A stretch of DNA of 64,000 bases from Nitrospiraceae bacterium (GTDB lineage: Bacteria > Nitrospirota > Nitrospiria > Nitrospirales > UBA2166), in the NCBI GenBank assembly GCA_002726235.1, contig PBSN01000007.1, positions 62,001 to 126,000 on the forward strand, read 5' to 3'. Below, piece after piece: positions 18,001 to 24,000 of this stretch. Numbering within the stretch: position 1 is the stretch's first letter; each line of letters starts with the position of its first letter. A program made the position numbers.

Positions 18001-21000
18001 TGGTGAAAGAGTCCTCGGACGCCATAGCGACCCATGAGTACCGTTTCAAACACTGTAATCGGAAAGTTACGATCGATTTTCCCTTTCTGTGGAAGATATC
18101 CAATGCGCGCACGGTGATAGCATCGGAGATTTTCACATGCGCAGTCGAAGATCTGCATGGTCCCTGTTTGTGGGAGAACCAAGCCAAGAATGGCTCGCAG
18201 GATGGTCGTTTTTCCAGACCCGTTCGGTCCAATAATGCCCACGAATTCGCCTTCGTTGATGTTGAGGCTGACCTCTTCGAGAGCTGGCGTGTGTGAGAGG
18301 GTATAGGTGGCGTTCGAAAATGCTATGACGCGCCGTGGCTGTTCTTTTGCGCGATTCGTTAACATTGTATTGTACAGTGCTAGGTAGCTAGGGAAGGAGA
18401 ACGACTGGTGTGATCCTAAGGGGTCAACACTTCTGCGAGTTTTAAGACATTGAATTGTAGCATGCTGGTGTAGGTGTTGGTTCCTGGGAGAGCTCCTGGA
18501 GTGGCGGTTAGCGTGACTATGCGAGCGCCAGTTTCTTGTGCGAGGATTCGCGGAATTTTCTGATTGAGTTGGGGCTCCGACACGATGACTTTGATTCCTT
18601 CTTTTTTGATGTGCTGCGTCAAGGTGCTGAGATGTTTTGCAGATGGCTCTGTCCCAGGTTGCTCAATGATATTCCCAACGATCTTAAATCCGAACCGGCG
18701 GGCAAAGTATGGCCACGCAGGATGATGGGAGACGAAACGCCGATCCGAAAGTTTTTTGACGCGGCGTTTAATGTCAGTTTGCAGCGTGTCGAGTGTACGT
18801 AAGTACTCAGCCTGATTGGCCAGATAGTCGCGTTTATTTGAGTGATCAAGCTTGATAAGTCGGGTAGTAATTTGTCGAACTATGCTCTTTGCATTCTCGG
18901 GGTCAAGCCAGATGTGTGGGTTGCCCAACGCATGCCTCTTATGGTGCGTGTGCATTGTTCCAGTATTTCTCAGAAGAGAAATGCCTTTGGATGAGACCAC
19001 GACTTCGAGTGAATTGTTCTGTGCGCTTTTCACTAGCTGATTGGCCCAGACTTCGAGGCCAGCCCCAATCGTCACGAACATGTGAGCCTGACGAATCGCA
19101 AGGACATCGCTGGGTTTGAGTGCGTAACTGTGGCCATTTTCAAGTCCGCTAATCAGACTGGTCACGGTGACGTGTTCACGTCCGATTTGTTTGACGTAGT
19201 CTTTTAGGACAGTGAGGGTGGTGACAACAATTGTGGTGTTCGTTTTGGCGTCAACGTGGGAAATTACGCTGGTTAGCAGGAATCCTATAATCAGCGTATA
19301 GATCAAGGGTTTTGCCATGGAGAAGGACGCTATCACCCTAGTCGAGAGAAAGTCAACGTAGTGACTCGGGGGTTGTCGGAAAAGTGCGCAACGGTGTTCT
19401 CAGCTCATTGTCGTGCTCATGTATTCCGTGTACGTTCCGCGTGCCAACGACCCTCAGGTCTGCTGGATTGCCTTTTTGAACAGCCTTGTTTTCTCGTAAC
19501 ACTTGAGGAGTGGCAATTTTTGAATTATTCAGCTGAGCACTTGGGAAGGACAGATGTTTTTAGGTTCATCTGCATTGGTAATGGTCGTGCAACATTGACA
19601 GGAAGGGGCATCCTGCGTAAACTCCTAAATCCTATCGGGATAGAGTAATTTGCATGAAAGTATCAATCAAAGGGGAGTATGGCGTTATGGCCGTTCTGGA
19701 GTTGGCGCTCAATGGAAACCATGGACCGCTTCAGGTCAAGGTCATCGCGAAGAAACAGAATATTCCCCACCGTTTTCTGGAGCAGGTGATGAGTGCATTG
19801 AAACGCAATGGTTTGGTTCGTAGCATTCGAGGGGCACAGGGGGGGTATCTGCTCGCCAAATCGTCGGATGAAATCCTCCTTGGAGATATCATCGAAGCGA
19901 TTGAGGGTCCTGTCACTCCCATGCCGTGTGTGGGGAATGGAGCCGCGGGGACGTGTTGGCAAGAAACTGATCCGAAGTTGTGCGTGCTTCATGGTGTGTG
20001 GAGCGACGTGAAAGATTCAGTACTGAACGTGTTGAATGCGACGACTGTTCAGGATCTGTGCAATCGTATCCACGCGTTGAATGGTCAGCGTATTCTCATG
20101 TACCATATTTGATTTGCGGGTTTGCCCTTGGTTATTGGAGGTTCTGGTATGGATGTACAGCAACCCACGTTGAAGGTTCCTGTTCCGGACGCGATTTTAG
20201 CTGAGATTGCCGGTTTTGAAGCCGAAGCCGAGAAAGTGAAACGGGGTGAACTGTCTGATGATGTGTTCCGGCCCTTTCGTCTGCAACATGGCATTTATGG
20301 GCAACGACAGGCTGGCTATCAGATGATTCGAGTGAAGATTCCGTTTGGTGGCCTCACCTCGACCCAAATGCGTTGCTTGGCGGCGCTCGTTGAGGAGTAC
20401 AGTTCTGGCATTGGTCATGTAACCACTAGGCAAGACATCCAATTTCATTTTGTTCCGCTCGACATGGTGGGAACGGTGATGCTTCGGCTTGCTGAGGTTG
20501 ATCTCACTACCAGAGAAGCATGCGGCAATACGGTGCGTAATGTGACCGCCTGTCCGTTGGCAGGAGTGTGCCAGGAAGAAGCATTCGATGTCACTCCCTA
20601 TGCGCTCACGGTGTCACGTCATCTTATGCGTAATGCGCTGAACCAGAGTCTCCCAAGAAAATTTAAAATTGCGTTCTCAGGGTGTGCAACAATGGATTGC
20701 GCTAAGACGATGATTCACGATATTGGCCTCTCAGCTATCCAAAAAGGTGATGGAACTCGCGGATTTCGCATGGTGGTTGGTGGAGGTCTCGGGTCGGCAC
20801 CTCGTTTAGCGAAACTTTTTCGAGAGTTTCTTTCGGTTGAAGACCTGATTCCCATGTGTGAAGCTGTCGTTAAAGTTTTCGATAATCACGGTAATCGGAA
20901 AAATCGCACGAAAGCTCGGATGAAGTTTGTAGTGACAAAGTTGGGCATTGATGAGTTTTTCCGTCAGATCGAAGCCGAATATGACGCGATCAAACAGGAG

Positions 21001-24000
21001 AGAAACGGATCGAGAGGGTATGATTTTCTGTCATATGCCGATGAGCCCTTCGTGGCCGATGTTCCGTTTTCGGTGAATGGAGGTCCAGGCTCCGGCGCTT
21101 CTCACGCGAATGGAGACGCCTCGGATGCGTTCGAGCGTTGGAAAAAGACAAATGTTATCCCACAGCGACAGCCTGGGTATAGTGCGATCACGTTGAAGCT
21201 TCCAACTGGTGACATGACTCCAACTCAGATACGGTTTGTGGCGGACCTGATCGATACCGAAGCAAATGGTAATATTCGAACCACTATTGGACAGAATGTG
21301 TTGATTCGTTGGATTTCGACAGCACGATTGCCTGAGATATATCCTAAACTTATTGAAGCTGACCTTGCTGATTCAGGTGCTCATCTCGTTGAGGATATTG
21401 TGGCCTGTCCAGGAACCGATACCTGTGGTCTTGGCATTACCTCTTCGAAGGCCTTGGCCCGGGCTTTGAAGGAAGTATTTCCTGCAGGAAACACGGGGGA
21501 CGATTTGACGGGAATGTCGATCAAAATCAGTGGATGTCACAACTCCTGTGCCCAGCATCACATTGCGACCATCGGGCTCCATGGCGTGACCAAGCGCTAT
21601 GGGGATCACATCGCGCCATTCTATGAAATGCATCTCGGTGGTTCATCTGGTGGTGACGGAGCGCGTATTGGACAAATGACCATCAAGCTTCCGTCTAGAA
21701 ACGTTTCGAGAGCGATTACACATCTGGTGGGATTGTTTCGACAGGAACGTCAGAACGAGGAATCGTTCCCGCAGTATCTCGATCGTGCGGGCAAATCCAA
21801 ACTTAAACAGGCACTGATCCCGTATTCGATCATTGGCAACTTTGACGAGACACCTGAATACTTTTATGACTGGGAAGCGAAGTCTGAGTTCAGTATCGTT
21901 GATCTTGGTCCTGGGGAATGTGCGGGTGGCGCGTTAGAGATGATTACCGATGGGATTTTGGAAGCCGACCAAGAGTTGTATCAAGCAGAGACACTGGCCC
22001 AAAGTCAACAATATGCCATGACGGTTAATAAAGCCTATCGGGCTGTGTTGGCAGCAGCAAAAGCGTTGCTGGTGACTGAAGGGATCGAACCTGCGACCGA
22101 TCTGCAGACGTTTGGAGATTGTGAGGCGCGGTTGATTAAAACTGGCGTTCTTCCTGCAGAATTTTCGGAGCATCTTGCGATCATCAGGGCACTCAATGAT
22201 AGTGATAAGAAACCGACGGTCGCATTTGCCGAAGAAAAACTTCGAGTGGCAAAATTGTTTGTTGAGGCATGCCGTTCAGCCTTGGAAGGGATTGGTGAGG
22301 ATTTGAAGTTAACCAAGGGTGAAGACATGGGTGATATTGCCTCTGCTCCACCAGCACTGGATGTGGGTGACGATATCGCGCTACTGGATTTGCGTGGGGT
22401 GAAATGCCCGATCAACTATGTGAAAACGAAGCTTCGTTTAGAAATGATGGATTCGGGTGAACGCCTGGCTGTCTTTCTTGATGACGGAGAGCCAATTAGA
22501 AATGTGCCAGCAAGTCTAAAAAATGACGGTCATACTGTCCTATCGCAAGAACCTATTGACGAATATTTCAAACTGGTGGTGGAGAATGCTTAAAGAAATG
22601 GATGCACAAACAGTGAACACAAAAGAAGCGGAATACGATGCCCTCAATACCAAATCAGCGGAAGATGTTTTGCAGTGGGCCTCTGAGACGTTTAGCGATC
22701 GAGGTGCGCTTATGTCGAGTTTCGGGCTCGAGGATGTTGTCCTCATCGATATGATGGCCAAGATCAATCCCAAGGCACGTATCATTACCTTGGACACCGG
22801 GCGACTGAATCAAGAAACCTATGATGTGATGGATAAGATACGAGACAAGTACGGCGTCTCCATTGAGGTGATGTTTCCCGATGCGGAGAAGGTGCAAGCA
22901 ATGGTACGAACCAAAGGGATGAACTTGTTCTACCATTCTCTTGAGAACCGCAAGGAGTGTTGTCGGATACGGAAGGTTGATATTCTCAACCGTTCGCTTG
23001 CCGATTTGGATGCGTGGATTACCGGGTTGCGCCGTGCCCAGGTCGTGACGCGAACCGAGACCAAAAAAGTCGAGATTGATCATGATCGCGGAGGAATGGT
23101 CAAAATAAACCCCATTGCTGATTGGGCGGTGAATCAAGTCTGGGACTATATTAAAGCCAACCATGTTCCGTTCAATGTTTTGCATGAGCGAGGGTATCCA
23201 TCAATCGGATGTGCTCCCTGTACTCGTGCGATCTCGACTGGTGAGGATTTGCGGGCCGGGAGATGGTGGTGGGAGCTTCCGGAACATAAGGAATGTGGTC
23301 TTCACGTGCAATCGCCCTAACGAACTTTTCCGTATTGTATTTTAAAACAAAAGATAGTGTGCTTAGTGTCATTACATAAAAACGAGGTATGGACGTGGAA
23401 AATATGACGGCAGAAAATATGAAAATAGACAAATGGGAATCTCAGAATCATGGTGGAAGCCCAACGACCAATGAAAGCAAGAAATATGCAATTTTTGTTG
23501 GGCGCTATCAACCGTATCATCAGGGACATACCTCATTGATCATGCAAAAAATTAAGCAGGGAATTCCGGTATTAATCATGGTACGAGACATTGCTCCTGA
23601 TGCAAAAAATCCTTTTACAACAGAGCAAACGGTTGAGATGATTGAAAAATTTCATTCAGATCACGGCCATGACGTGAAGGTCATGATCATCCCTGATATT
23701 GAAAGCGTGAACTATGGGAGAGGCGTTGGATATGAAATCAATGAATTTACTCCGCCTGAAGACATTGGGTTTATCTCAGCAACAAAGATCAGACAATCCA
23801 TTAAAGATTCCAATGATGATTGGAGACTATTAGTTGATGAATCGATTCAGGCGGATGTAGAAAGGCACTTACTGGAAAGTGACGTAGAACTATAGAAATA
23901 AAAAAAATGTACGCTGTGCCTCTCGATGAGATCATCGCGAAGGTGAGCCAAGGCCCGCGAGCTTCGAAAGATCTTACGTGGGGTGAGGCGAAAGCTGTTA

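What a model noticed while it worked through the whole genome (the two positions that open the first line are those of the whole stretch)
20149..22593. Assimilatory sulfite reductase carrying a C-terminal TusA sulfur-carrier domain
The sirohaem sulfite/nitrite reductase beside cysH (g00521, 814 aa) has, after the usual 560-aa catalytic part, a ~140-aa helical (HEPN-like) linker and a TusA domain with the CP-motif cysteine. I read this as a sulfite reductase that hands its sulfide product directly to its own TusA as persulfide, so that free sulfide is never released. The fusion is kept in all four Nitrospirales families sampled and seems not to have been remarked on.
Evidence so far: Pfam NIR_SIR_ferr/NIR_SIR x2 50-556, HEPN 605-702 (E 5e-6), TusA 746-812 (E 1e-18); sequence ..LRGVKCPINYVK... 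Operon Rrf2-g00521-cysH. Of 10 non-UBA2166 Nitrospirales searched, 8 give one full-length match (residues ~9-813, 58-60% identity, no stops), 1 gives two adjoining pieces and 1 (94% complete) only a 33% match without the TusA part; 2 of 4 genus relatives are full length, the other 2 are cut by contig ends. Paper search gave no report.
(Added by a program. Inside this text positions count along the whole contig: contig position 62,001 is position 1 of the stretch shown here. "Call 12" and the like, gene names such as g00115 and contig names such as C1 are that model's own, and its searches are not shown. The text may have been shortened before it was handed on; [...] marks where a part breaks off. 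The agent that wrote the report below was given it as the finding of a first reader that could run no searches.)

Follow-up and report, generated by a model that had tools for sequence, protein, structure and literature searches.

The report
Sulfite reductase fused to TusA carrier
This gene encodes a sulfate-assimilation sulfite reductase with a built-in sulfur-carrier tail, one member of a protein family already annotated across many bacterial phyla, and the tail probably hands reduced sulfur to small carrier proteins that make cysteine and methionine.

Summary
Window 20149-22593 (+) encodes an 814-aa protein: a sirohaem/[4Fe-4S] sulfite-reductase core, a HEPN-fold helical bundle and a C-terminal TusA domain. 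It lies between an Rrf2 regulator gene and cysH.

The fusion is neither restricted to Nitrospirales nor unremarked.
- An exhaustive search with residues 557-814 gave 387 cluster representatives at E<=1e-10.
- Members occur in Campylobacterota (including Wolinella succinogenes and Sulfurospirillum), Bacteroidota, Spirochaetota, Planctomycetota and other phyla.
- Annotators already call it "sulfite reductase, contains SirA-like domain".

Outside Nitrospirales, 59 of 79 loci place the gene beside ThiS-like carrier, rhodanese-less ThiF-type E1 or JAB protease genes. This operon type, with its SirA component, was described in 2006. The window's own genome carries the same machinery on another contig.

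New here:
- A second cysteine, Cys591 in a G-E-C motif, is invariant in 67 of 67 diverse members, alongside TusA Cys753.
- The linker has a true HEPN fold but no RNase motif.

Best reading: an assimilatory sulfite reductase whose two-cysteine module relays sulfur to ThiS-type carrier proteins. The relay step is inferred, not shown. The claim that free sulfide is never released is not supported, because CysE and a stand-alone CysK/M-like enzyme are present.

The parts
19595..19623 (+). Promoter-like site (TTGACA-17-TAAACT) ahead of the Rrf2 gene
   Evidence: 10 of 12 matches. The count of such sites in the region (8) is not above shuffles (6.2 +/- 2.5), so this is only a candidate.
19654..20112 (+). 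Rrf2-family regulator (CymR/IscR-like, with three Cys in a C-x9-C-x9-C stretch)
   Evidence: Pfam Rrf2 130 bits. CymR 119.7 bits (cut-off 195) and IscR 110.6 bits (cut-off 207.55), both below cut-off. An Rrf2 gene is at position -1 in 58 of 80 Nitrospirales loci.
20149..22593 (+). sir fusion gene: sulfite reductase core + HEPN-fold domain + TusA domain, 814 aa
   Evidence: AlphaFold2 mean pLDDT 88.6, pTM 0.79.
20296..21816 (+). Catalytic sirohaem/[4Fe-4S] part (residues 50-556). Cluster/sirohaem ligands C420, C426, C463, C467; anion-binding R94, R130, R170, K171, K173.
   Evidence: Pfam; all invariant in 67 of 67; aligned to tobacco nitrite reductase, which has N where this protein has K173.
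21868..21930 (+). Conserved junction motif D574...F581...G-E590-C591-x-G, holding the second invariant cysteine (Cys591 codon at 21919-21921)
   Evidence: D574, E590 and C591 in 67 of 67. The segment has lower model confidence (pLDDT 65-70 for residues 581-600), as expected of a mobile loop.
21925..22287 (+). HEPN-fold helical bundle (residues 593-713), without an RNase motif
   Evidence: in 560-745 only P563, Y572, D574, F581, G589, E590, C591, I599, L640, L641, G645 and F658 reach 80% conservation, and no Arg or His does.
22288..22377 (+). Flexible tether (residues 714-743)
   Evidence: pLDDT below 50 for residues 728-741; pLDDT below 50 for module residues 171-184.
22378..22584 (+). TusA domain (residues 744-812), with Cys753-Pro754 (Cys753 codon at 22405-22407)
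   Evidence: 1dcj YhhP/TusA, TM 0.82 (target-normalised), rmsd 1.7 A; also 3lvj IscS-TusA and 8j4c YeeD. C753, P754, N756 in 67 of 67.
22598..23320 (+). cysH (thioredoxin-dependent APS-reductase type), start 5 nt after the sir stop
   Evidence: A cysH gene lies within four genes of the fusion in 66 of 80 Nitrospirales loci and 28 of 79 loci of other phyla.

Best explanation
The gene encodes the organism's ferredoxin-type assimilatory sulfite reductase, the last reductive step after Sat and APS reductase CysH. Its C-terminal module is a sulfur relay made of three elements: a mobile G-E-C loop (Cys591), a non-catalytic HEPN-fold scaffold, and a TusA domain (Cys753) on a roughly 30-residue tether. 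Proposed mechanism (inferred): sulfur reduced at the sirohaem is captured on Cys753 as a persulfide. This could happen by sulfide attacking a Cys591-Cys753 disulfide, or by interception of a partly reduced intermediate as in DsrC. TusA then swings to a rhodanese-less ThiF-type E1 and attacks the acyl-adenylate of a ThiS/MoaD-like carrier protein. Cys591 resolves the resulting acyl-disulfide, releasing the carrier thiocarboxylate and re-forming the disulfide. The thiocarboxylates feed a CysM-type cysteine synthase and a ThrC-like (MetM-type) homocysteine synthase, and a JAB peptidase trims and recycles the carriers. In Nitrospirales the reductase gene has been moved out of that operon into an Rrf2-sir-cysH unit. 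Shown: domain architecture, catalytic residues, the two invariant cysteines, gene contexts, and presence of the whole pathway in this genome. Inferred: every sulfur-transfer step.
For: Sulfite reductase identity: two NIR_SIR halves. The four Cys ligands and the R/R/K-x-K anion site are invariant in 67 of 67 members, and tobacco nitrite reductase has Asn at the K173 position. cysH is coupled 5 nt downstream. Sat is present. A separate NirB-type nitrite reductase is on contig C14. Relay module: exactly six cysteines are invariant in 67 diverse fusions (26-78% identity to P0001): the four ligands, C591 and C753. Link to protein thiocarboxylates: among 79 loci from other phyla, 45 have a ThiS-like small ORF, 53 a ThiF E1 and 45 a JAB gene next to the fusion, and 59 have at least one of them. 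The carriers end in GG(G) plus 1 to a few residues. JAB-SiR-TusA triple fusions exist (P0414 910 aa; P0421 960 aa with 24 cluster members). In cultured Sulfurospirillum cavolei the operon is cysH-cysD-cysN-thiS-E1-JAB-sir/TusA-cysG-metY-like, with overlapping stops and starts. W. succinogenes DSM 1740 has the fusion (P0428, 31% identity to P0001 over 12-800, E 2e-117). The own genome has, on contig C13, a ThiS-CysK/M fusion, E1, a ThrC-like enzyme, a ThiS/MoaD-like carrier, a NIL-domain protein, a second E1 and JAB. Both E1s are 268 aa and match only positions 14-275 of the 392-position MoeZ profile, so they lack the rhodanese sulfur-donor domain. No Cys_Met_Meta_PP enzyme reaches the cut-off, so homocysteine probably depends on the ThrC-like/MetM route (GapMind 2026 preprint, passage read). 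4 of 5 Bacteroidales genomes with an unlinked fusion have a ThiS-E1-JAB triad elsewhere. The second stand-alone TusA of this genome sits next to moaC and moaD-moaE, which is a parallel case of TusA beside a MoaD-type carrier. Published prediction: SirA replaces rhodanese in these operons (PMC1779556). In silico docking of E1 with TusA 742-814 gave weak support: score 0.37 (runs 0.39, 0.35, 0.37) against a best control of 0.01. That mark was reached by 116 of 157 solved complexes and 2 of 215 mismatched pairs, but scores of 0.60 or under came from only 18 of those 157 and from both mismatches. Partner pLDDT was at least 92 and the runs agreed in at least 95% of contacts.
Against: No transfer step is demonstrated. 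In Nitrospirales the fusion is never adjacent to ThiS, E1 or JAB genes (0 of 80 loci). Genome-wide co-occurrence does not discriminate: Prok-JAB is present in 187 of 201 genomes of the phylum, including families that have only stand-alone TusA. Other possible donors exist in this genome: three rhodanese-domain proteins, two stand-alone TusA and a DsrE_2 protein. CysE and a stand-alone CysK/M-like enzyme are present, so free sulfide is probably also used. As I recall (paper not readable here), free bisulfide sufficed in vitro to form the Wolinella carrier thiocarboxylate. The genome has only two ThiF-type E1s for four ThiS-family carriers, so these E1s are not dedicated to Cys/Met synthesis. 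Making a persulfide from S2- needs an oxidant, and the Cys591-Cys753 disulfide cycle is my construction. One short relative (P0226) has Ser in place of the TusA Cys. The complex score is in the range where passes are 'more often wrong than right unless the guess was likely beforehand'.
Confidence: 0.5

Rival explanations
1. General sulfur hub. The TusA domain takes persulfide sulfur from the reductase but feeds the cell's general relay (DsrE/TusA proteins, Moco, thiamine, tRNA thiolation, Fe-S assembly) rather than specifically the Cys/Met carrier proteins.
For: A DsrE-like gene follows at +2 in 13 of 80 Nitrospirales loci. The own genome has a DsrE_2-TusA pair and a TusA next to moaC/moaDE. 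Only two E1s serve four ThiS-family proteins, including thiamine ThiS at window 7224-7409 beside thiG. In S. cavolei, mnmA lies at the end of the operon.
Against: The strongest and most recurrent linkage outside Nitrospirales is to ThiS/E1/JAB plus MetY- or CysM-type enzymes and sulfate activation genes, not to Moco, thiamine or tRNA genes. Cofactor sulfur is classically drawn from cysteine by desulfurases (established knowledge), which makes a direct line from sulfite reductase unnecessary.
Confidence: 0.2
2. Substrate-side carrier. Cys753 (with Cys591) carries an S-sulfonate or thiosulfate group to the sirohaem, for example taking the sulfo group from CysH, so that toxic sulfite is channelled rather than the product.
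For: cysH is translationally coupled here and lies within four genes in 66 of 80 and 28 of 79 loci. The TusA-like protein YeeD of the thiosulfate uptake complex is among the structural matches (8j4c, E 3.7e-4). DsrE/TusA homologues that transfer thiosulfate are cited in a reference list I saw (Liu et al. 2014, in PMC4378227; that paper itself was not read).
Against: This does not explain why rhodanese-less E1s, ThiS-like carriers and JAB flank the gene, or why JAB is sometimes fused to it. CysH homologues normally release sulfite through thioredoxin (established knowledge). No CysH-TusA fusion was seen: the one extended form (L102, 1037 aa) has no family match in its extra 258 aa.
Confidence: 0.12
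3. Redox switch or regulator. A Cys591-Cys753 disulfide reversibly docks or undocks TusA to gate the oxygen-sensitive reductase, or TusA senses sulfur status, with no sulfur transfer.
For: There are two invariant cysteines on mobile elements. Hosts range from aerobes (Nitrospira) to strict anaerobes.
Against: TusA-family proteins with the Cys-Pro motif are known as sulfur carriers (established knowledge; structural matches). The operon logic with rhodanese-less E1s (PMC1779556) calls for a donor. A regulatory role would not predict JAB fusions.
Confidence: 0.08
4. It is an assimilatory nitrite reductase (NirA) and the sulfur context is coincidental.
For: The best PDB and NCBIfam scores are to ferredoxin-nitrite reductases and the 'NirA family' (3b0l E 3.6e-50; NF007126 273.7 bits).
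Against: All those NCBIfam scores are far below cut-off (273.7 against 523; 226.1 against 594). The K-x-K motif is invariant, whereas tobacco nitrite reductase has K-x-N. The cysH, cysDN, cysG and metY operon contexts point to sulfur. The genome has a separate NirB-type enzyme with BFD and Rieske domains. M. tuberculosis 'NirA' (1zj8) is, as I recall, itself a sulfite reductase.
Confidence: 0.03

Closest known systems
Sir of the Wolinella succinogenes HcyS/HcyF/HcyD/MetY protein-thiocarboxylate methionine pathway (Krishnamoorthy & Begley, JACS 2011; citation seen in the reference list of PMC5764234; the paper itself is not held, so its content is recalled)
   Same: W. succinogenes DSM 1740 encodes a 764-aa NIR_SIR + TusA protein (P0428) that aligns with P0001 end to end (31% identity), including the G-E-C and C-P motifs. 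A related cultured species, S. cavolei, has the operon cysH-cysDN-thiS-E1-JAB-sir/TusA-cysG-metY-like.
   Different: In the window the gene is not in that operon but in Rrf2-sir-cysH. The window's genome uses CysM- and ThrC-like enzymes, and no MetY-type enzyme was found. I could not verify that the 'Sir' of the paper is this protein, nor whether the paper discusses its TusA domain. I could not retrieve the W. succinogenes locus.
ThiS/MoaD-JAB-E1 'sulfur metabolism' operons with SirA (Iyer, Burroughs & Aravind, Genome Biol 2006, PMC1779556; passages read)
   Same: The gene set is the same: carrier, JAB, E1 without rhodanese, PAPS/APS reductase, ATP sulfurylase, sulfite reductase, sulfhydrylase. 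The prediction that SirA (=TusA) stands in for rhodanese is also the same.
   Different: In the passages I read, the paper speaks of a SirA protein in the neighbourhood, not of its fusion to the reductase through a HEPN-fold domain, and it does not mention the second invariant cysteine. It reports a different fusion (ThiS on the C-terminus of actinobacterial sulfite reductase).
M. tuberculosis SirA (NirA, PDB 1zj8) with the CysO-CysM-Mec-MoeZ cysteine pathway
   Same: A monomeric ferredoxin-type sirohaem sulfite reductase (1zj8, E 4.9e-44). The cysteine pathway uses a ThiS-like carrier, a JAB peptidase and an E1.
   Different: The 1zj8 chain is 566 residues, with no room for a C-terminal module. 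MoeZ has a rhodanese part that the window genome's E1s lack (they match profile positions 14-275 of 392). The Cys that, as I recall, forms the Tyr-Cys link in SirA is not conserved in this family (C125 in 13 of 67).
E. coli TusA (YhhP) in the IscS-TusA-TusBCD-TusE-MnmA relay and in Moco synthesis
   Same: Same fold and the same Cys-Pro active site (1dcj, 3lvj).
   Different: E. coli TusA receives its sulfur from the cysteine desulfurase IscS (3lvj is the IscS-TusA complex). Here TusA is covalently tied to the enzyme that makes reduced sulfur upstream of cysteine.
DsrAB-DsrC dissimilatory sulfite reductase (works-like comparison only, recalled)
   Same: A sirohaem sulfite reductase working with a two-cysteine protein partner that could take up a partly reduced sulfur.
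   Different: DsrC is a separate TusE-like protein with both Cys on one C-terminal arm. Here the two Cys sit on different elements of the same chain. The catalytic core is of the assimilatory type (dsrA/dsrB models score only 42.7 and 48.7 bits). No experiment supports a four-electron mechanism here.
Rhodanese domains of MoeZ/MOCS3/Uba4 and ThiI (persulfide donors to ThiS/MoaD/Urm1 adenylates; recalled)
   Same: The proposed role is the same: a persulfide attacks the carrier acyl-adenylate and a second Cys resolves the acyl-disulfide.
   Different: The fold is different (TusA, not rhodanese), and the donor is attached to the reductase, not to the E1.

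Membership tests
Ferredoxin-type assimilatory sirohaem sulfite reductase (Sir / M. tuberculosis SirA class) | Two tandem NIR_SIR_ferr + NIR_SIR halves | tested here: met
   NIR_SIR 188.8 bits and NIR_SIR_ferr 120.5 bits, two stretches each.
Ferredoxin-type assimilatory sirohaem sulfite reductase (Sir / M. tuberculosis SirA class) | Four cysteine ligands of the [4Fe-4S]-sirohaem centre (C-x5-C ... C-x3-C) | tested here: met
   C420, C426, C463 and C467 are invariant in 67 of 67.
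Ferredoxin-type assimilatory sirohaem sulfite reductase (Sir / M. tuberculosis SirA class) | Arg/Arg/Lys/Lys anion site, with Lys (not Asn) at the second position of K-x-K | tested here: met
   R94, R130, K171 and K173 are invariant. The aligned tobacco nitrite reductase reads K-W-N at that place. The assignment of roles to these residues is recalled from the E. coli and spinach enzymes.
Ferredoxin-type assimilatory sirohaem sulfite reductase (Sir / M. tuberculosis SirA class) | Score above the curated cut-off of a named equivalog model | tested here: not met
   NirA family 273.7 bits (cut-off 523); ferredoxin-nitrite reductase 226.1 (594); CysI 184.1 (457); 'sir' 129.4 (731.5). The protein belongs to a distinct, uncurated subfamily.
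Ferredoxin-type assimilatory sirohaem sulfite reductase (Sir / M. tuberculosis SirA class) | Six-electron reduction of sulfite with ferredoxin as donor | not testable with these tools
   Context only: cysH is coupled, Sat is present, and cysDN/cysG are linked in other phyla.
TusA/SirA sulfur carrier (PF01206) | Family model above the gathering score, and the TusA alpha/beta fold | tested here: met
   64.2 bits against a cut-off of 28.6. 1dcj TM 0.82 (target-normalised), rmsd 1.7 A; 3lvj TM 0.86.
TusA/SirA sulfur carrier (PF01206) | Conserved Cys-Pro at the start of helix 1 | tested here: met
   C753-P754 in 67 of 67. One short relative, P0226, has Ser.
TusA/SirA sulfur carrier (PF01206) | Carries persulfide sulfur on that cysteine | not testable with these tools
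   Needs mass spectrometry of the protein during turnover.
HEPN domain | Helical-bundle HEPN fold | tested here: met
   Pfam 24.5 bits against a cut-off of 22. Foldseek matches 2hsb, 1ufb, 1wol and 1o3u with target-normalised TM 0.72-0.79.
HEPN domain | R-x4-6-H nuclease motif (recalled as the mark of catalytic HEPN domains) | tested here: not met
   No Arg or His reaches 80% conservation in residues 560-745. The domain has the fold only and should not be filed as a HEPN RNase.
Protein-thiocarboxylate Cys/Met biosynthesis system (CysO-CysM-Mec-MoeZ / HcyS-HcyF-HcyD-Sir-MetY / MetO-MetM) | ThiS/MoaD-like carrier ending in Gly-Gly (often with extra residues to be trimmed) | tested here: met
   Own genome: a ThiS domain fused to CysK/M, and a MoaD-like protein ending in GGN. 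A small ThiS-like ORF lies beside the fusion in 45 of 79 loci of other phyla, mostly ending in GG(G) plus 1 to a few residues.
Protein-thiocarboxylate Cys/Met biosynthesis system (CysO-CysM-Mec-MoeZ / HcyS-HcyF-HcyD-Sir-MetY / MetO-MetM) | E1 adenylyltransferase, JAB peptidase and a PLP-dependent sulfhydrylase | tested here: met
   Own genome contig C13: two E1s, JAB, a CysK/M-type enzyme (456 bits against cut-off 351) and a ThrC-like enzyme. S. cavolei operon.
Protein-thiocarboxylate Cys/Met biosynthesis system (CysO-CysM-Mec-MoeZ / HcyS-HcyF-HcyD-Sir-MetY / MetO-MetM) | The reductase gene lies in the same operon as carrier, E1 and JAB | tested here: not met
   Window and Nitrospirales: 0 of 80 loci. 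Other phyla: 59 of 79 loci have at least one of the three. For the window, membership rests on presence elsewhere in the genome.
Protein-thiocarboxylate Cys/Met biosynthesis system (CysO-CysM-Mec-MoeZ / HcyS-HcyF-HcyD-Sir-MetY / MetO-MetM) | Sulfur passes from the reductase/TusA to the carrier adenylate | tested here: inconclusive
   Only an in-silico E1-TusA docking with weak support: 0.37 against a best control of 0.01. The mark was reached by 116 of 157 solved and 2 of 215 mismatched pairs, but scores of 0.60 or under came from only 18 of those 157 and from both mismatches.

The most novel reading that the evidence does not exclude
The G-E-C loop, HEPN scaffold and tethered TusA form a self-recharging two-cysteine sulfurtransferase built onto an assimilatory sulfite reductase. 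Sulfur leaves the sirohaem as a protein persulfide, by sulfide opening a Cys591-Cys753 disulfide or, more radically, by DsrC-like capture after only four electrons. It is then delivered straight to ThiS-type carrier adenylates on rhodanese-less E1s. If so, in Nitrospirales and in many anaerobes of a dozen phyla, cysteine and methionine sulfur would travel from sulfite to amino acid largely on proteins. It would also mean that a DsrC-like co-substrate logic exists in assimilatory enzymes.
Probability: 0.3. Interest if true: 0.7.

Novelty: new member of a known kind. Interest (0 to 1): 0.45.

Why it matters
Protein-thiocarboxylate routes to cysteine and methionine are still poorly represented in pathway databases. 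PMC5764234 noted their absence from MetaCyc and KEGG in 2017, and GapMind added the MetO/MetM route only recently. The sulfur donor for the rhodanese-less E1s of these routes is an open point. This fusion family is abundant (387 representatives at E<=1e-10) and occurs in nitrite oxidisers, gut Bacteroidales and Campylobacterota. It is the obvious candidate donor, and it offers a direct experiment: two invariant cysteines to mutate, with cultured hosts available. For genome annotation it matters that PGAP names these 760-830-aa reductases 'sulfurtransferase TusA family protein', which hides the sulfite reductase step in metabolic reconstructions.

Tried and rejected
1. Genome-wide co-occurrence of the fused module with Prok-JAB in 201 genomes of the phylum. 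JAB is in 187 of 201, including families with only stand-alone TusA, so the test does not discriminate.
2. Long open frames of 1234 and 1292 aa ending in the module (G014, G052). The extra ~390 N-terminal residues have no Pfam match and are probably open frame upstream of the true start. Not a fusion.
3. L102's 1037-aa frame: the extra 258 C-terminal residues have no Pfam match. Left unexplained.
4. RNA evidence. Three metatranscriptome runs from two studies hold 151-265-nt contigs identical to pieces of Rrf2, sir and cysH. No contig bridges two genes, and DNA carry-over cannot be excluded. This shows presence in RNA libraries only, not co-transcription.
5. Promoter and terminator scan: counts are not above shuffles.
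6. Retrieval of the W. succinogenes locus: the record was not returned. S. cavolei was used instead.
7. The Begley 2011 paper could not be read.
Precomputed Pfam columns served instead.
11. Short hits of about 250-290 aa covering only the module. Most align further upstream and look like fragments. A few begin with Met exactly at the module start (P0123, P0141, P0157, P0224) and could be split forms. I could not check them because contigs were not retrievable.
12. Paper searches for a report of the fusion. No paper in the searched library combines TusA, thiocarboxylate and sulfite reductase (0 hits). Subscription papers and closed supplements were not searched.

Full report
OBSERVATION. The ORF is real. 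It starts at the ATG at 20149, preceded by GGAGG at 20137-20141, and ends at the TAA at 22591-22593, giving 814 aa. Pfam finds NIR_SIR (188.8 bits) and NIR_SIR_ferr (120.5 bits), two stretches each. It also finds a marginal HEPN match (605-702, 24.5 bits against a cut-off of 22) and TusA (746-812, 64.2 bits against 28.6). The upstream gene (19654-20112) is an Rrf2 regulator, closest to CymR and IscR but below their cut-offs. The downstream gene is an APS-reductase-type cysH. Its likely start, the ATG at 22598, lies 5 nt after the sir stop. A divergent ZnuABC-like transporter lies upstream.

WHAT THE PROTEIN IS. I aligned 67 full-length relatives chosen from an exhaustive search (26-78% identity to P0001). 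Exactly six cysteines are invariant:
- C420, C426, C463 and C467, the [4Fe-4S]/sirohaem ligands;
- C591;
- C753.

R94, R130, R170, K171 and K173 are also invariant. In the HMMER alignment to tobacco nitrite reductase, the residue opposite K173 is Asn. This fits what I recall of sulfite- versus nitrite-specific enzymes. No curated NCBIfam equivalog is reached: the best is 'NirA family' at 273.7 bits against a cut-off of 523. The core therefore belongs to an uncurated subfamily. The genome has only one other NIR_SIR protein, a NirB-type enzyme with pyridine-nucleotide, BFD and Rieske domains, which leaves this one as the sulfite reductase. Sat is present.

AlphaFold2 with the 67-row alignment gives mean pLDDT 88.6. 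The model shows:
- a confident core up to about residue 580;
- a lower-confidence loop (581-600, pLDDT 65-70) that holds G-E590-C591;
- five helices (593-713);
- a disordered tether (728-741);
- a confident TusA domain.

The module modelled alone (pLDDT 82.9) matches HEPN structures (2hsb E 8.8e-5, target-normalised TM 0.79, rmsd 2.6 A; also 1ufb, 1wol, 1o3u). It also matches TusA/YhhP, the IscS-TusA complex and YeeD. No Arg or His is conserved in the bundle. It has the HEPN fold but not the nuclease motif.

DISTRIBUTION.
- A word-indexed search with residues 540-814 gave 1010 hits at E<=1e-3.
- An exhaustive HMMER search of 1.84 billion representatives with residues 557-814 gave 1169 at E<=1e-3, 387 at E<=1e-10 and 37 at E<=1e-30. 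Many are 740-820 aa with the match at the C-terminus.
- Source names and record titles place members in Nitrospinota, Chrysiogenetes, Poribacteria, Spirochaetota, Calditrichota, Acidobacteriota, Verrucomicrobiota, Planctomycetota, Fibrobacterota, Omnitrophota, Margulisbacteria, Bacteroidota (Prevotella, Alistipes, Tannerella), Deferribacteraceae, some Betaproteobacteria and Campylobacterota.
- Cultured hosts include Wolinella succinogenes DSM 1740, Sulfurospirillum multivorans, S. barnesii, S. diekertiae, S. cavolei and Helicobacter aurati.
- The ESM Atlas lists a 403-member cluster, commonest in Thermodesulfobacteriota, with the same architecture.

Of 160 places examined (159 loci plus the window), my gene caller picked the fusion ORF in 158. 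Of those, 144 are full-length (735-1037 aa, median 818), 13 are cut by contig ends and 1 is split (L072). My caller missed two: L070, which has a 962-aa open frame, and L146, a 247-aa frame whose contig nevertheless matches over residues 1-761. In a 201-genome sample of the phylum, all 50 same-order genomes have the module. So do several other families (f4, f5, f9, f12, f13), while most remaining families match only in the TusA part.

The fusion has been noticed by annotators. Names include 'putative Sulfite reductase, contains SirA-like domain (Modular protein)' for N. japonica and KM1, 'HEPN domain-containing protein' and 'sulfurtransferase TusA family protein'.

CONTEXT: THE DECISIVE LEAD. 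I called and clustered the genes within four positions of the fusion in all loci. The table counts loci in which each neighbour occurs.

| Neighbour | Nitrospirales (80 loci) | Other phyla (79 loci) |
|---|---|---|
| cysH | 66 | 28 |
| Rrf2 | 58 | 2 |
| CysN-type GTPase | 42 | 20 |
| TrpD-like gene | 68 | 0 |
| DsrE-like gene | 13 | 0 |
| ThiF-type E1 | 0 | 53 |
| Prok-JAB | 0 | 45 (usually immediately upstream) |
| ThiS-like small ORF | 0 | 45 |
| Any of ThiS / JAB / ThiF | 0 | 59 |
| Sirohaem synthase | 0 | 29 |
| PALP enzyme | 0 | 22 |

The ThiS-like ORFs mostly end in GG(G) plus one to a few residues. The 20 loci of other phyla without any of the three are mostly Prevotella and other Bacteroidales, or truncated contigs. 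In 4 of 5 such Bacteroidales genomes a ThiS-E1-JAB triad lies elsewhere. JAB-reductase-TusA triple fusions exist (P0414, 910 aa; P0421, 960 aa, 24 cluster members from Desulfobacterales-type MAGs).

In cultured S. cavolei the operon reads cysH-cysD-cysN-thiS-E1(268 aa)-JAB-sir/TusA-cysG-metY-like, with overlapping stops and starts. This is the gene set of the protein-thiocarboxylate methionine pathway that I recall from W. succinogenes (Krishnamoorthy & Begley 2011; paper not readable here; citation seen). It is also the operon class described by Iyer, Burroughs & Aravind 2006. [quoted passage not shown] The W. succinogenes protein (P0428, 764 aa) aligns with P0001 over its whole length (31% identity, E 2e-117), including both cysteine motifs.

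THE WINDOW'S OWN GENOME (1.87 Mb, 90.65% complete). Contig C13 carries, on one strand:
- a ThiS domain fused to a CysK/M-type cysteine synthase (TIGR01139, 456 bits against cut-off 351);
- a 268-aa E1;
- a ThrC-like PLP enzyme;
- a ThiS/MoaD-like carrier ending in GGN;
- a NIL-domain protein;
- a second 268-aa E1;
- a Prok-JAB.

Both E1s match the MoeZ profile only over positions 14-275 of 392, so they lack the rhodanese part. No Cys_Met_Meta_PP enzyme reaches the cut-off. The ThrC-like gene fits the MetM type of the recently described MetO/MetM route (GapMind 2026 preprint, passage read). Two further ThrC homologues exist elsewhere in the genome. The organism thus has the whole thiocarboxylate machinery and E1s with no built-in sulfur donor, and its sulfite reductase carries a TusA.

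The second stand-alone TusA of the genome sits beside moaC and a moaD-moaE fusion, and the first beside a DsrE_2 gene. The ThiS gene inside the window (7224-7409) belongs to thiG/thiE.

MECHANISM. Shown: the architecture, the residues, the contexts.

Inferred: the reductase makes reduced sulfur, and Cys753 on its tether picks it up and delivers it to carrier adenylates on the E1. Cys591 would act as the resolving cysteine, by analogy with ThiI and with rhodanese-E1 fusions (recalled). Because sulfide is S(-II) and a persulfide is S(0), an oxidant is required. I propose a Cys591-Cys753 disulfide that sulfide opens and that re-forms when the acyl-disulfide is resolved. That cycle has no net redox change. 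A bolder alternative is DsrC-like capture of a four-electron intermediate.

A complex prediction of E1 with TusA 742-814 gave weak support:
- Score 0.37 (runs 0.39, 0.35, 0.37) against a best control of 0.01.
- The mark was reached by 116 of 157 solved and 2 of 215 mismatched pairs.
- Scores of 0.60 or under came from only 18 of those 157 solved pairs and from both mismatches.
- Partner pLDDT was at least 92, and the runs agreed in at least 95% of contacts.

AGAINST.
- Nothing shows transfer.
- In Nitrospirales the genes are unlinked (0 of 80 loci).
- JAB is nearly universal in the phylum (187 of 201 genomes), so co-occurrence says nothing.
- The genome has three rhodanese proteins, two free TusA and a DsrE.
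- It has CysE and a free CysK/M-like enzyme, so free sulfide is very likely also used.
- Only two E1s serve four ThiS-family carriers, so a broader hub role is possible.
- As I recall, bisulfide alone worked in vitro in the Wolinella system.

NOVELTY AND VERDICT. The window gene is an ordinary member of a large fusion family that is already annotated. The operon logic of that family was published in 2006, and one member's pathway has (as recalled) been reconstituted. To the extent of my eight paper searches (subscription literature not covered), the following appear undescribed:
- the invariant second cysteine in the G-E-C loop;
- the structural confirmation of a non-nuclease HEPN scaffold;
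- the relocation of the gene into an Rrf2-sir-cysH unit in Nitrospirales;
- the breadth of the family.

The role of the TusA domain remains an open and directly testable question. Interest is moderate (0.45).

Noticed in passing
window 23389-24962 (+): A cytidylyltransferase-like/NMN-adenylyltransferase-like gene (168 aa, below cut-offs) and a TrpD-like phosphoribosyltransferase (351 aa; trpD model 160.9 bits against cut-off 199) follow cysH. A TrpD-like gene lies within four genes downstream of the fusion in 68 of 80 Nitrospirales loci and in 0 of 79 loci of other phyla. It is a conserved but unexplained companion of the sir-cysH unit.
   Followed up: partly
own genome, contig C13:73.5-78.5 kb (locus L257 4508-9477, minus strand): An operon with a ThiS domain fused to the N-terminus of a CysK/M-type cysteine synthase, two rhodanese-less E1s, a ThrC-like (MetM-type) enzyme, a MoaD-like carrier ending in GGN, a 79-aa NIL-domain protein and JAB. 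The carrier fused to the N-terminus of its own synthase and the NIL-domain gene are unusual.
   Followed up: partly
Nitrospirales loci, e.g. L025:5610-6020: A 137-aa DsrE/DsrF-like gene sits two genes downstream of the fusion in 13 of 80 Nitrospirales loci. It may be a further relay partner.
   Followed up: no
window 7224-9029 (+): thiS-thiG-thiE thiamine genes. Only two ThiF-type E1s were found in the whole genome, both in the C13 operon, so E1s are apparently shared among thiamine, Moco and Cys/Met carriers.
   Followed up: partly
window 9136-10872 (+): Proteasomal ATPase (Mpa/ARC-type: AAA plus the two Prot_ATP_ID_OB domains), which suggests a bacterial proteasome system.
   Followed up: no
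window 16668-19336 (-): A ZnuA/ABC-3/ABC_tran metal (Zn/Mn) uptake operon lies divergent from the Rrf2-sir-cysH unit.
   Followed up: no
L102:3503-6617: In a Marinamargulisbacteria MAG the fusion ORF runs on for 258 further residues after TusA (1037 aa in all), with no Pfam match in the extension. It could be read-through, an assembly error or a new domain.
   Followed up: partly
Sulfurospirillum cavolei NBRC 109482, L168 and L171 (two contigs): Two copies of the fusion locus, each 92% identical to the query protein, lie on different contigs of one isolate assembly. This may be a recent duplication or an assembly redundancy.
   Followed up: no
PGAP naming across the family: Full-length 760-830-aa sulfite reductases are named 'sulfurtransferase TusA family protein', 'HEPN domain-containing protein' or 'Mov34/MPN/PAD-1 family protein' after their minor domains. 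This can hide the sulfite-reduction step in automated metabolic reconstructions.
   Followed up: no
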